From contig NC_090417.1 of NCBI RefSeq assembly GCF_036365525.1, positions 310,001-374,000 on the forward strand: DNA of 64,000 nt, given 5' to 3'. A model generated the notes under the pieces. That model worked only from the letters and a program-made list of their open reading frames with translations, was not told the DNA's origin and ran no database searches. Of this stretch, positions 21,585 through 35,143 are shown in pieces. Made by a program: the position numbers and the translations under genes. Position 1 is the first letter of the stretch, and every line of letters starts with the position of its first letter. Source of the DNA: Heterodontus francisci. Its lineage: Eukaryota.

Positions 21585-24500
21585 ATGGCTGTCTTTGTGA
21601 TCCTTGTCTCCTTGTGCCTCTCCCCAGGTAAGGTGTTAGCTGCTGTGTAATGCTTTACTGCGGGAGCCACACACACACACACTGACAAGAGGGCCTTGTG
21701 CCCATTCACTGCCAGTCAGTGTTTGTGACTTTGTGCTGAAATTGTAATCTCGTGTTTAGTTTTACCTCTATGACTGACTGTGATTGAGCCCCGCCTCTGC
21801 AAAACCAGCTTGCATTATGTACGCCCAAGTGCTTATCCCTGGTCTTGCCCTTGGAGGATGGCTCTGCAGTATGAAGGCCAGGGCAGTTGGAAGACTGTAC
21901 AAGCCACAAGGTTGCATCCCTAATGATTATAATGGGGCAGAGGCAACAGCTCAATGCACTGGTTCTGTGTGTGAGGACAGTGGTCTGAAACTGTGCTCTG
22001 AATGCAAGTATTGGGTTATAAAATTACAGCTGGTTTATTTATTTTTGGCTCCTGCGGCAGTTTCAGTTCTTTTTTTGGGTGGGGGGGGTGGCACAGCCAC
22101 AGGGAGAGCATCCAGCACTCTGGCCTTCAGCCTACATCTAGGGTTTCTCAGCAGTGACAAAGTGTGGACTTCCCGCACTCTGTTATTTAACGGCGCGATT
22201 AAGATGCTAGTTGGAATAATTGGCCTCTTGCTCTGTGGGAGTTCAAGATCCTGAATAGCAAGAGGCTATATCGACGTAATGGCACAGTTCTAAAGAGTGT
22301 GCAGGGAGAGAGGGACCTGGGGGGTGGGGGGGGGGGGGGGTGGGGGGGGGCGCATGTGTATCGATCTTTGAAAGCGGCAGGACGTACTGGAGAGAGTGGT
22401 CAGCGAAGCATTTGGGATCTTGAGCTTGATAAATCATGCTGTTGAACGCAAAAGCAAGGGCAGCCTTTTTATAAAGCTCTGGTTGGGCCCCAACTGGAGT
22501 ATTGCATGCAGTTCTGGTCGCCACACTTTAGGAAGGATGTGAGGGTCCTTGAGAGGGCGCAGAGGAGATTTACCAGAATGGTTCCAGGGATAGCTCCGTG
22601 GAGCTGGAACCCCCACACTGTTCTCATTAAAGCACACTATAATGAGGTACAGTCTCCCTTCTCACTGTACCCTTCAGTTTCACTGTTACAGGAGGGCAGA
22701 GGTCATGGAAAACGAGCTTTCCACTGTGACGGGTCCTACATTATGAAAGAAAATTAAAGCCTCTGTGTCGTGTAGTGCTCACATCTCTGGCCATACGCTA
22801 CTCAGAAAGAAGGCTTGTTTCAGTCTGGCGTCGAAAATAGGTCAGTGCACGCCCTCGGCTCCACATCTCAATGCATCAGTGCATGGGGGAGTGGACTCTC
22901 ACAATCAGTTCAGCGGAAGGGGGAAAATCATCCACTCGTACCAAACTGTTACCCATGCCGACCCTTCCTGTTTCAGTACTAACACTGCAGGAAAGCCACT
23001 CCTGCTTGTAAATTCAACTAGATCATGGCTGATCTTCTATCTCAATGCCTGCACTATCCCTATAATCCCTTGATATCTTTAATATCTCAAAATCTTTTGA
23101 TCTCTGTCTTGAATATGCCCAGTGACTGAGCTTCCACAGCCCTCTGGGGTGGAGAATTCCACAGATTCACCACCCACTGAGTGAAGAAATTCCTCCTCAT
23201 CTGTCTTAAATGGCCTGCCCCTTGTTCTGAGACTGTGTCCCCTGCTTCTAGGCTCCCCCCAACCAGGGGAAACTTCCTTCCTGCATCTACCCTGTCGAGC
23301 CCTGTGAGAATTTTGTCTGCTTCAATGAGATCACCTCTCATTCTATAAAACTCTAGATATTTATCGATTTATATATTTATAAATCTCCCATTATTTGACA
23401 TTAGTGATCCAGATGGGTGTTTACGACAATTGGTATTCATCTCAGTAATCGTGCCACGAAACTAGCTTTCAATTCCACATTACTTATTACCCAAGTGATT
23501 TTATTAAAGAATTGAATTTAAATTCCAGCAGCTGTGGGCGTAGGGAAATCTGTAAGTGGTATGTTTAGGGGCATTTAAAAGCAGCTCAGCCTGCCTTTTG
23601 CCAAGGGATAAAGTCAAGCCCATGGAGTAGTCATGTGGGTCCCAGAACGGTAACTCAGTCCAAGGTGTAATATTACTTGTTCCTTTGCTTTGCTCCATGC
23701 AGTATTGCAAGACTCGCAGGACTACAAGTAATATCCAAAGAAAACTTGGGGTTTTTGTTATAGCTGAACGAGAACTACACCCACAGCTCTCTGGTTATAT
23801 GTGTCGCGCCATCACCTCCTCTGGTGATCTTCACTTATAGCTCTTAGCGGTCAGACTTCTGTTGGAGGGGGGGGAGGATGTTAGCAGTAATACATCACCC
23901 ACATGTTTTCCTCTGTTCTTTATTGTTTCATGTGTATTTAAGCAGGGCAACGTCCACCTTAGAAACAAACACTGCCATTGCAAGGATAACCGGGCCCCTT
24001 CCCCACCTCTGCCAATAAACACCGAGCTCCTCCCACTACCCCTGACCGTCACTGTAAATTCGCAAGCTTTGCCCTGATCATTCTGACCACATGCCGTAGA
24101 CCGACACAGCAACAAGCAGCAACAAACATTAATTCGTCGATTGCATGCTCCGAGGGCCAGCCTGCTTGAAGTGTGGGTTGCAGGTAGAGACACAACATAC
24201 GTGCATGTTCTCCTTTTGAACACTGGGATTGCTAGATTGATGAATTCACGTGAGGGAGAGGTCCATGAGGATTGGTCCCATGAGGGACTTTTCAGGGGTG
24301 GCTTTTACCTGTAAGTCAAAGGGATACAGCGAGAAGGTGCACCAGCTACAAAGGCTGCTCCTTTCCAAGGCCACTTTCACTGCAGCCTCGCTTCTGTGGC
24401 AGTGGGACCAAGATCAATGGAAACCATTTTGATAATGGTCAGCACTTCCCACCCGGCCCCCATTACTTACCTCCTGCACTTTCTATCGAATATCCTGCAC

Positions 24501-33500: not shown

Positions 33501-35143
33501 AGACATTCCTTAAAACTTACCTCTTTAACCCAACTTTTAGCCGTGTCCTGATATCCCCTTACGCAGCTCAATGTCAATTTTTGCTTTATAACATTTGTGA
33601 AGCGCCATTTTATTACAGTTGAAGGCGCTATATAAATACAGTATATAATAGTTGTTGTTGCTTTGCTTTTTCTCCCTTGCTTTGTGTTTCCATATCGCCT
33701 CCATTGGGTAAATCATTTAGATGTGACAAACATTGCACCAATGGAAGTGTTCAAATCTATCAGAATGGGATTGCTGATTTTTTTTTTTTCCTTTGTGTTC
33801 TTTTTTTGTTCAATCTGCTTCTTATAGTGTGAAGACTTTGTCCACTCCTATAAACCCCAGCTCGGCTCTCTTCTTCAGAAGTCGCAGGAGGGAAAAGATA
33901 TTTGTGCGGTAAGTGTCTGAAGGAGAGCACACTCGTTCTCTGAGCTGTCTGGGAATTCATGCAAAGAGCTGGCGCAGACTCAATGGGTTCAATAGCCTCC
34001 TTCTGTGCTGTACTGTTCTGTTTAGCTATTCTTTGTTGAGACGAAATTTTTGCAGACACTCTTGGTGACAAATCTCTTCAAGCTCCCATGAAGAATAGGC
34101 ACTTTGTCAGGGCATCGGATAGCAGCCAACTGCCTGGGAGCTGTACGACTGCAAAGAGCCACGAGGGAAGAAAGTTGAGGAAAGCACTGCTTTCCCGTCT
34201 TGTAAAAAGCCTTCTGTTACCCTTTCTCTCAGGGAGCGGCGCAAACATTCAGGAATCGGCCTCAACCTGTGTCCTTGTGTATTTACTTGCAGGAACTGGA
34301 TATCTGTGTAAGAAAAAAGTACGTCCACCTGCTTGGAGTCAATGAGTGCACCTGGGGACCAGCACACTGGTGCAAGGACCTGGAAATTGCCACACGGTGT
34401 AATGTAAGCATGACTTCAACCCTCTGTAATGAATGGAGAGTGGCAGCGGGTAAAGATTTATTGGACAACAGATTGTCATCTGCCGTCAAACCTTATTTCA
34501 AAGCAGTGTGCTAGATTTATTACTGTCTTTTGTACAGGCCACAAAACTGGGTGAAGCTAGAACTACTCTCCCTTTACACTGAGATCATGGTTAACCCCTG
34601 GCATGACACTAAAAGACCACTTTCATATATAACTATTCACACCAGTTATCACAGGTAGCGCAAATGTGCACTTGCTAAATTCTCAACACCAAACAGAACT
34701 TCAGCTTTCTGTTTTTTTCCCCCCCCCACCAAAGTGTGCTGTTTGTCTGGCACCTCAATTAGTTAAGACACTGATTTCTTTTTAAATCTGCAGAACGGTT
34801 GCACCAAGGCAATGACACCAGGTTGCAGCAACTAGCAGTTATGCCGCTGCTAAAACCAGTACCCAATCTGGGCCACGCTCTGGTTTTTTTTGCACCTGGG
34901 GTTCTGCGCAAGGTGAACCATCGCGGTCGAAAAGGGAAGCTGACCGGCTAAATCAGGAAGCGGTCGTTCGCTTCCCTCAAGCTTGAGAAACGATTTGGTT
35001 TCACAAGATTTGTCGGAGAGAGTTATGTCCTCCGAAAGAAATCTGTTCTGTATTTTAGGAATGTAAAGAGTTCTCATGTTTAGTATTTTTGGCTTTTTTT
35101 TTTTTAGGCTGTCGAACACTGTAAGAAGCACGTCTGGAACTAA
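21585..35143 (+). CDS. SFTPB: Surfactant protein B orthologue / prosaposin-like saposin precursor (signal peptide, SapA, three SapB domains, C-terminal SapA), 11 coding exons, about 392 aa
   Basis: Exons 21585-21627, 24765-24898, 27997-28071, 28348-28473, 29564-29713, 30109(or 30106)-30198, 30713-30896, 31588-31736, 33828-33908, 34293-34403, 35108-35143. All introns GT-AG with matching phases. Translation MAVFVILVSLCLSPVLA...CAEGPVYWCQDLKTATQCRAVQYC...CEVCKKV...LPQCTLCLLIVKKLQEYLPK...CGACEDIV...CTWGPAHWC...AVEHCKKHVWN*. Three (not four) saposin domains and a tail-to-tail position with USP39 favour SFTPB over PSAP. Confidence 0.85.
26850..27530 (+). mobile_element. CR1 LINE ORF2 fragment in SFTPB intron 2
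   Basis: NADKCEVMHFG...VRPHLEYCVQFWSPHYRKD, with a frameshift near 27181. Confidence 0.85.
30945..31430 (+). mobile_element. Degenerate CR1 fragment in SFTPB intron 7
   Basis: VKKANGMLSFIGRGIE...LVRPQLEYCLQSWSPHYRKD. Confidence 0.75.
32990..33660 (+). mobile_element. Degenerate L2-clade LINE 3' fragment
   Basis: GGTGGCCGTGCCTTCA...CTCTGGAATTCCCTCCC segment and a GGCGCTATATAAAT...GTTGTTGTTG tail typical of L2 3' ends. Confidence 0.55.

What the first reader, a model, noticed from the sequence alone, without database searches (positions are those of the whole stretch)
21585..35143. Intact surfactant protein B orthologue in a lungless fish, built like prosaposin minus saposin B
Seen: an uninterrupted 11-exon ORF with three six-Cys saposin domains, convergent with USP39 as human SFTPB is. 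Domain 1 resembles saposin A (VDSYLPII...VCAALGLCKSLQ...SNAIPE), domain 2 saposin C/mature SP-B (KTE, CSYLP, VETYG, LHLC), and domain 3 saposin D. The roughly 390-bp intron 5 shows no saposin B exons. Known: cartilaginous fishes lack lungs and swim bladders. Inference: the PSAP duplication and saposin B loss that produced SFTPB predate lungs, and the gene has a non-respiratory role here (lysosomal lipid handling, mucosal or antimicrobial). Orthologues are known in bony fish, so novelty is moderate.
Basis: partly seen in the sequence, partly recalled or inferred. Interest (0 to 1): 0.7.

Follow-up and report, generated by a model that had tools for sequence, protein, structure and literature searches.

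The report
Shark version of lung surfactant gene
This is an intact, spliced shark gene of the same lineage as the lung surfactant protein B gene, built as prosaposin minus its saposin B part and likely handling lipids or killing microbes inside immune cells; that sharks have this gene is already published, so it is mostly ordinary.

Summary
Observation confirmed. The 11 exons at 21585-35143 give a stop-free 392-aa protein with SapA caps at both ends and three six-Cys saposin domains. Public RNA contigs support all 10 junctions, including exon 5 straight to exon 6. A separate 14-exon prosaposin lies on another contig. The window gene matches its exons 1-5 and 9-14 in phase and lacks exons 6-8, the saposin B module. 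In trees, shark and ray copies join coelacanth and amphibian SP-B (100/100), and a shark-only PSAP duplicate is rejected (p-AU 9e-71). USP39 and a UPF0561 gene lie next door, as at human SFTPB. It is an SFTPB orthologue, but not new: bioRxiv 10.1101/2024.07.14.603411 reports bamboo-shark sftpb in spleen, liver, gill and immune cells and proposes an antibacterial or immunoregulatory role. What this check adds: the horn shark middle domain lacks the hallmarks of surfactant SP-B (83 aa, GRAVY 0.31, 6 Cys, against 79 aa, 0.8-1.1, 7 Cys in amphibians), and in three other shark orders it is strongly cationic. Interest is low.

The parts
21585..21627 (+). Exon 1 coding part: ATG and hydrophobic putative signal peptide (43 nt, phase 1); equals PSAP exon 1
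   Evidence: junction to exon 2 in RNA contigs; signal peptide judged by eye, no predictor run
24765..24898 (+). Exon 2: N-terminal SapA cap (134 nt, same length as PSAP exon 2)
   Evidence: Pfam PF02199 E 2e-15
27997..28071 (+). Exon 3: start of saposin domain 1, saposin A type (75 nt, same as PSAP exon 3)
28348..28473 (+). Exon 4: middle of domain 1 (126 nt, same as PSAP exon 4)
29564..29713 (+). Exon 5: end of domain 1 and linker; equals PSAP exon 5
   Evidence: score 92 to PSAP exon 5 against 27 to exon 8
29714..30108 (+). Intron 5 (395 bp; 392 bp with the acceptor 3 nt upstream, which adds one Gln); the place where PSAP has exons 6-8 (saposin B)
   Evidence: both joints in 4 of 4 runs; isoforms X1/X2; stops in all frames
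30109..30198 (+). Exon 6: start of domain 2, saposin C type, orthologous to mature SP-B (90 nt); equals PSAP exon 9
30713..30896 (+). Exon 7: rest of domain 2 (184 nt, phase 1, same as PSAP exon 10)
   Evidence: best PDB hits human saposin C, E 1.3e-10
31588..31736 (+). Exon 8: start of domain 3, saposin D type, with the only N-glycosylation sequon found in the three domains; equals PSAP exon 11
33828..33908 (+). Exon 9: middle of domain 3 (81 nt, same as PSAP exon 12)
34293..34403 (+). Exon 10: end of domain 3 and C-terminal SapA cap; equals PSAP exon 13
   Evidence: Pfam PF02199 E 1.6e-9
35108..35143 (+). Exon 11 coding part with stop (36 nt, same as PSAP exon 14)
35144..36234 (+). Probable 3' UTR; AATAAA/ATTAAA hexamers at 35530, 36056, 36195, 36229 (end not mapped)
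   Evidence: contig depth to 36300
39576..50501 (-). USP39 exons (span of the Pfam hits only), converging on the gene; synteny marker
   Evidence: zf-UBP and UCH hits; 45399-45560 matches human USP39 at E 4.6e-26
56418..59620 (+). UPF0561 gene in three exons (C2orf68; that family-to-gene name is recalled), head to head with USP39; synteny marker
   Evidence: PF10573 E 8e-9, 8e-17, 1e-9

Best explanation
This is the horn shark's intact, spliced SFTPB orthologue, a prosaposin duplicate without the three saposin B exons, and its product is likely a lysosomal or phagolysosomal lipid-handling and antimicrobial precursor rather than a surfactant protein. Shown here: gene structure, splicing, loss of exactly PSAP exons 6-8, grouping with coelacanth and amphibian SP-B, and USP39/UPF0561 neighbours. 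Inferred from tree and shared architecture: the duplication and the saposin B loss happened once, before sharks and bony vertebrates split, so before lungs. All PSAP introns around exons 6-8 are phase 0, so one deletion would keep the frame. Inferred from known prosaposin and proSP-B biology (recalled, not tested): the signal peptide takes the precursor into the secretory route, acid-compartment proteases cut the two linkers, and three disulfide-locked saposins open at low pH to bind, extract or perturb membrane lipid. In phagocytes and mucosal cells the A-type domain would help kill engulfed bacteria, as the N-terminal domain of mammalian proSP-B does at acidic pH, and the C-type domain would act as a soluble saposin-C-like lipid mobiliser. 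Orthology about 0.97; this functional reading about 0.6.
For: ORF and splice sites. All 10 junctions in RNA contigs. 14-exon PSAP on contig C42: intron phases match for exons 1-5 and 9-14, and 6 of 11 exon lengths are identical. None of 11 window exons scores best against PSAP exons 6-8. Domain 1 scores A 85.2 against B 44.9, C 61.7, D 63.9 bits; domain 2 scores C 89.9 against A 50.4, B 31.1, D 61.5. Domain tree: the saposin B clade (100/99) holds 0 of 18 SFTPB-type domains; d1 sits with A (93/92), d2 with shark and fish C (86/93), d3 with D (97/99). Concatenated trees: 12 shark/ray + 4 bony SP-B rows at 100/99; 9 + 5 rows at 100/100, with lamprey prosaposin outside all jawed-vertebrate rows at 94/94. 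AU test rejects shark copies + shark PSAP, p 9.4e-71. Identity over the aligned blocks is 49.5% to coelacanth SP-B and 39.2% to its own PSAP. Glycosylation sequons are absent from domains 1 and 2 in 19 of 19 SFTPB-type rows. The human gene list runs TMEM150A, USP39, C2ORF68, SFTPB, GNLY (PMC10742694 table passage). Bamboo shark sftpb is expressed in spleen, liver, gill and immune cells with little abca3 co-expression (bioRxiv 10.1101/2024.07.14.603411 section 8). The SP-B N-terminal domain is bactericidal at acidic pH (review PMC7279303 passage).
Against: No full-length mammalian, bird or reptile SFTPB and only one teleost row (a two-domain stickleback sftpba, long branch, placed next to sharks at 94/82) were available, so orthology to human SFTPB is bridged through coelacanth and amphibians. 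By single-sequence score domain 2 is far closer to human saposin C (44 bits) than to any SP-B chain in the PDB (20 bits, N-terminal domain only). Domain 3 scores C slightly above D and exon 9 scores best against PSAP exon 10, not 12. NCBI names the gene prosaposin-like. The lamprey placement is not a starred branch and rests on one low-quality model. Nothing about localisation, cleavage, lipid binding or killing was tested; horn shark domains 1 and 2 are not cationic (net -4 and 0 to +1). Tissues of the RNA runs are unknown.
Confidence: 0.82

Rival explanations
1. Same orthology, but the gene is a housekeeping second prosaposin that supplies saposin A/C/D-like cofactors for sphingolipid hydrolases, with no special antimicrobial role.
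For: It keeps both SapA caps like PSAP. Domain 2 has saposin C length, moderate hydrophobicity and six Cys. Expression in bamboo shark is broad.
Against: An intact PSAP already exists. The SFTPB stem branch is long (0.5-0.6 changes per column), sequons are lost in domains 1 and 2, and domain 2 turned strongly cationic in 6 of 6 rows from lamniform, carcharhiniform and orectolobiform sharks, which fits changed function. Published expression is enriched in spleen and immune cells.
Confidence: 0.3
2. The protein is secreted onto gill, gut or skin surfaces as a surface-active or anti-adhesive lipid organiser, a pre-lung surfactant.
For: Gill expression in bamboo shark; the orthologous domain is the surfactant peptide in tetrapods.
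Against: Horn shark domain 2 lacks the 79-aa length, high hydrophobicity, seventh Cys and Pro-rich hydrophobic N-terminus seen in amphibian SP-B. sftpb and abca3 are little co-expressed in any bamboo shark cell type.
Confidence: 0.1
3. It is a shark-specific PSAP duplicate that lost saposin B independently and is not SFTPB.
For: NCBI name 'prosaposin-like'; best PDB hits are saposins C and A; fast-evolving rows can attract each other in trees.
Against: AU p 9.4e-71. Each of the three domains separately groups sharks with coelacanth and frog SP-B (93/99, 98/100, 97/97), and the shark and coelacanth end branches are short. USP39 and UPF0561 are adjacent.
Confidence: 0.02

Closest known systems
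Bamboo shark sftpb (Chiloscyllium plagiosum; bioRxiv 10.1101/2024.07.14.603411; passages and sections 8 and 20 read, figures not seen)
   Same: Same claim: sftpb exists in lungless cartilaginous fish, arose by whole-genome duplication, and probably has an antibacterial or immunoregulatory role.
   Different: Another species. The preprint's text contains neither 'psap' nor 'saposin', so it does not state the exon-level loss of saposin B or compare domain chemistry in its text; its tree is in a figure I could not see.
Coelacanth and amphibian SP-B precursors (P0041, P0052, P0053, P0183, P0164)
   Same: SapA cap, A-, C- and D-type saposins, SapA cap; no saposin B; one clade; 49.5% identity to coelacanth.
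   Different: Amphibian domain 2 is 79 aa, GRAVY 0.76-1.07, seven Cys, with a Pro-rich hydrophobic N-terminus; horn shark (83 aa, 0.31, six Cys) and coelacanth (82 aa, 0.37, six Cys) lack these.
Mammalian SFTPB / mature SP-B
   Same: Three saposin domains, USP39 and C2orf68 as neighbours. A shark profile matches the mouse SP-B N-terminal domain (6vyn) as well as it matches saposin A, 65.7 against 65.6 bits. Exon lengths 126, 90, 184 and 81 match human SFTPB exons 4, 6, 7 and 9 as I recall them (two paper searches, did not confirm this).
   Different: Mature SP-B is a 79-residue disulfide-linked homodimer with an N-terminal insertion sequence (PMC2805716 passages); the shark domain has no spare Cys. 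The human precursor lacks the C-terminal SapA cap (recalled).
Prosaposin (PSAP; horn shark copy P0019 on contig C42)
   Same: Same caps, same intron phases, 6 of 11 exons of identical length.
   Different: Has exons 6-8 (saposin B) and sequons in domains A and C; 39% identity; other contig; other clade.

Membership tests
SFTPB gene lineage | Groups with bony-vertebrate SP-B to the exclusion of PSAP | tested here: met
   100/99, 100/100, AU p 9.4e-71 against the PSAP grouping; no amniote SFTPB in the set
SFTPB gene lineage | Three saposin domains of A, C and D type, no saposin B | tested here: met
   exon map; RNA joint exon 5 to 6. D identity rests on tree and position, not profile score
SFTPB gene lineage | Conserved neighbourhood with USP39 and C2orf68 | tested here: met
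   against the human gene list in PMC10742694; human orientation is recalled
SFTPB gene lineage | GNLY/NK-lysin and ATOH8 on the other side, as in human | tested here: inconclusive
   no saposin-profile hit in 104 kb around the gene; no convincing Pfam gene in 127 upstream ORFs; short or diverged exons could be missed
SFTPB gene lineage | A separate four-domain PSAP in the same genome | tested here: met
   14 exons on C42; a SapA search finds only these two loci below E 0.001
Surfactant-type mature SP-B peptide | 79-residue, very hydrophobic middle domain with Pro-rich N-terminal insertion | tested here: not met
   83 aa, GRAVY 0.31 against 0.76-1.07 in 4 amphibian rows
Surfactant-type mature SP-B peptide | Seventh Cys for the interchain disulfide | tested here: not met
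   six Cys in shark, coelacanth and stickleback; seven in 4 of 4 amphibian rows
Surfactant-type mature SP-B peptide | Lamellar-body packaging and surface-tension lowering | not testable with these tools
   needs cell and biophysical assays
Prosaposin (PSAP) | Four saposins A-D | tested here: not met
   three domains; exons 6-8 absent
NK-lysin / granulysin | Single cationic saposin domain in a short precursor | tested here: not met
   three domains with SapA caps; net charge -4, +1, -3; NK-lysin and granulysin score 31-34 bits against 65-77 for saposins A and C

The most novel reading that the evidence does not exclude
Shark SFTPB preserves the pre-surfactant state of the gene, and its middle domain went two ways: toward a short, hydrophobic, dimer-forming surfactant peptide on the line to tetrapods (after the coelacanth split), and toward a strongly cationic, NK-lysin-like antimicrobial with extra gene copies in lamniform, carcharhiniform and orectolobiform sharks. 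The near-neutral horn shark and coelacanth domains would then be stand-ins for the ancestor in direct assays of how a lysosomal saposin became lung surfactant. Searches found no paper stating this; most subscription journals were not searchable.
Probability: 0.35. Interest if true: 0.5.

Novelty: already known. Interest (0 to 1): 0.22.

Why it matters
It confirms, in one more shark and at exon resolution, that the surfactant protein B gene is older than lungs. A 2021 commentary still placed its origin in the bony-fish ancestor (PMC7995279 passage); the 2024 preprint already moved it to the jawed-vertebrate ancestor. The practical gains are modest: databases label most of these shark genes 'prosaposin-like', the saposin B loss is pinned to three phase-0 exons, and the domain comparison suggests that the surfactant-type peptide chemistry arose well after the gene did.

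Tried and rejected
Hidden saposin B exons: none in intron 5 or any other intron by a splice-site and open-frame scan or saposin profiles, and RNA joints skip intron 5 whole. A chimeric deletion (A/B or B/C hybrid domain): rejected, since exons 4 and 5 match PSAP 4 and 5, and exons 6 and 7 match PSAP 9 and 10 (exon 6 ties between PSAP 9 and 11 at 34). Four-domain SP-B proteins (caecilian P0164, unnamed P0148) as evidence that saposin B was kept: rejected, their extra domain scores as A (67.7 and 63.3 against B 21.4 and 25.5 bits) and falls in the SFTPB domain-1 clade at 99/99. Searches had shifted domain labels for the lamprey and Narcine prosaposins (my pattern missed one domain in each); one search is the corrected tree and the only one used for the lamprey. 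A second copy near the gene: none in 104 kb. The upstream ATG of the NCBI model (21444): no contig covered 21420-21503, which cannot show absence; other sharks' proteins align from the 21585 Met. The run search listed no holder on record as RNA; spliced joints were read from contigs guessed to be RNA. The 50%-representative search was swamped by many-domain invertebrate prosaposins and gave no amniote SFTPB among the 10 of 150 rows I named. The structure model was weak overall (mean pLDDT 62, pTM 0.27) and the fold search gave saposin C, A, D and SP-B N-domain hits, none at E 0.001 or better; it adds nothing beyond the fold. The Atlas look-up returned only prosaposin-type clusters. Searches for human SFTPB exon sizes found nothing usable. 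Yang et al. 2010 on the SP-B N-terminal domain was not held and is cited only through a review. No earlier scan findings were listed.
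Full report
Observation. Eleven exons between 21585 and 35143, all flanked by GT..AG introns, join to a 392-residue protein with no internal stop. Pfam finds a SapA cap in exon 2 and again in exon 10, and saposin pieces in exons 3-7 and 9; exon 8 had no hit (9 exons scanned). Three domains carry six Cys each. Intron 5 is 395 bp with stops in all frames. A public protein set holds the identical sequence with a 47-residue upstream extension, named prosaposin-like, from Heterodontus francisci; a second isoform differs by one Gln.

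Transcription. Contigs from four runs of one sample, guessed by the tool to be RNA, show GT..AG joints across introns 2, 3, 5, 6, 7, 9 and 10, and loose ends that read into the next exon for introns 4 and 8 and intron 1. Exon 5 joins exon 6 directly through two acceptors 3 nt apart in 4 of 4 runs. No joint to an extra exon between them was listed (86 weaker joints were not shown). Tissues are unknown and contig depth cannot rank expression.

Relation to prosaposin. A search of the genome finds a second locus on contig C42, and a SapA search finds only these two loci below E 0.001 (counts there are lower bounds). The C42 gene has 14 coding exons for a 506-aa, four-domain prosaposin. Its exon lengths are 46, 134, 75, 126, 177, 141, 57, 96, 96, 184, 164, 81, 108, 36; the window gene's are 43, 134, 75, 126, 150, 90, 184, 149, 81, 111, 36. 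Dropping PSAP exons 6-8 aligns the two series with identical phases and 6 of 11 identical lengths. In an exon-by-exon score table, 10 of 11 window exons score best against the expected PSAP exon (two of these by tie; exon 9 prefers PSAP exon 10), and none scores best against exons 6-8. Profiles built from 20 prosaposins assign domain 1 to A and domain 2 to C clearly; domain 3 is ambiguous. The domain tree places it with D at 97/99 and keeps all 18 SFTPB-type domains out of the saposin B clade.

Orthology. Protein searches gave three-domain relatives in sharks and rays, coelacanth, frogs and a two-domain stickleback sftpba, and later a further frog, a caecilian, an unnamed four-domain protein and a lamprey prosaposin. 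On 314 columns of caps plus A, C and D domains, 12 shark/ray and 4 bony SP-B rows form one clade at 100/99. Forcing the shark rows together with shark PSAP costs 79 log-likelihood units, p-AU 9.4e-71. The corrected second tree gives 9 + 5 rows at 100/100 and puts lamprey outside all jawed-vertebrate rows at 94/94, not a starred branch. Rows were a chosen subset: 29 of the 56 proteins then held, and 28; near-duplicates, partial models and most teleost PSAPs were left out. No amniote SFTPB was available. Downstream on the opposite strand lie zf-UBP and UCH exons, one of which matches human USP39 at E 4.6e-26, followed by a UPF0561 gene on the plus strand. The human gene table in PMC10742694 lists USP39, C2ORF68, SFTPB, GNLY together (passage). 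Upstream I found no identifiable gene in 127 ORFs and no further saposin in 104 kb.

How it likely works. The precursor has a hydrophobic N-terminus, two SapA caps and three saposins separated by linkers that the structure model leaves disordered (low confidence overall). By analogy with prosaposin and proSP-B (recalled), it would be routed to acidic compartments and cut into three lipid-binding saposins. The middle domain, orthologous to mature SP-B, is 83 aa, GRAVY 0.31, net charge 0 and six Cys; coelacanth and stickleback are similar, whereas 4 of 4 amphibian rows are 79 aa, GRAVY 0.76-1.07 and seven Cys. Mammalian mature SP-B is 79 residues, a disulfide-linked dimer with an N-terminal insertion (PMC2805716 passages). 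The shark domain therefore fails the surfactant-peptide test while the gene passes the lineage test. A review reports that the N-terminal saposin of proSP-B promotes bacterial uptake and kills at acidic pH (PMC7279303 passage), and a shark profile matches that mouse domain as well as it matches saposin A. With published expression in spleen, liver, gill and immune cells of bamboo shark, the most likely role is phagolysosomal lipid handling and killing of engulfed microbes (about 0.6), ahead of a plain second prosaposin (0.3) and a mucosal surface-active role (0.1). None of this was tested here.

What is known. bioRxiv 10.1101/2024.07.14.603411 (outline, passages, sections 8 and 20 read; figures and supplements not seen) names sftpb among lung genes produced by the two whole-genome duplications, shows its expression in bamboo shark and proposes an antibacterial or immunoregulatory role. 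PMC7995279 (passage) gives the older view of an origin in bony fish; PMC4764851 (passage) calls SFTPB conserved across vertebrates. NCBI already names the whale shark and epaulette shark copies SP-B or SP-B-like. Searches for sftpb with cartilaginous fish and psap and sftpb with shark and saposin found no paper, and a search on SP-B and prosaposin duplication listed 13 papers, none of whose titles or abstract openings treat this, so the exon-level account may not be in the open literature; subscription papers were not searchable, and I recall that proSP-B/prosaposin homology was described in the early 1990s.

Beyond the finding. Domain 2 is neutral or acidic in horn shark, sevengill shark and rays (0, -3, -7, -7, -4) but +7 to +14 in 6 of 6 rows from white shark, catsharks and whale shark. 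White shark, basking shark and small-spotted catshark each have two copies on one chromosome-length contig (adjacency not checked). This is the boldest lead: a cationic antimicrobial turn in some sharks and a hydrophobic surfactant turn toward tetrapods from a near-neutral ancestor. It rests on composition alone.

Verdict. Real, intact, correctly interpreted SFTPB orthologue; headline already published; interest 0.22.

Noticed in passing
window 23946-24898: Minor alternative acceptor in intron 1: exon 1 joins 23946 in 2 of 4 runs (depth 789 in X4, 10 in X1). Read from the ATG it stops after 19 residues, so it would be unproductive or regulatory.
   Followed up: partly
window 30106/30109: Tandem acceptors 3 nt apart at exon 6, both used in 4 of 4 runs at roughly 40:60 contig depth; they add or omit one Gln in the linker where saposin B was lost.
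   Followed up: yes
window 21444-21584: NCBI's model starts 47 codons upstream of the conserved Met; other sharks' proteins begin at the 21585 Met and contigs reached only 21520. Probably an annotation extension.
   Followed up: partly
P0007/P0011, P0008/P0012, P0010/P0038, P0031, P0039: Second SFTPB-type copies and a strongly cationic domain 2 (pI 9.3-9.8 in the 6 rows computed) in lamniform, carcharhiniform and orectolobiform sharks; whale shark and epaulette shark models lack the C-terminal SapA cap.
   Followed up: partly
P0164 (caecilian) and P0148 (unnamed): Four-domain SP-B precursors made by duplicating the A-type domain, not by keeping saposin B.
   Followed up: yes
L003:4988-5299 (G000 C31) and L004:3382-3474 (G000 C36): Decayed PSAP-like pieces; the C31 one runs across PSAP exon 4-5-6 boundaries without introns, like a processed pseudogene.
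   Followed up: partly
P0020 (Hemitrygon): Predicted protein with SFTPB-type modules in rearranged order (signal, domain 3, cap, then domain 1); may be a tandem partial copy or a merged gene model.
   Followed up: no
window 45396-48103: Long tandem repeat (13-codon unit in the translation) inside a USP39 intron, open in two minus-strand frames for about 860 codons.
   Followed up: no
window 16135-19456 and 9837-10658: Low-complexity satellite arrays upstream of the gene giving long spurious ORFs on both strands.
   Followed up: no
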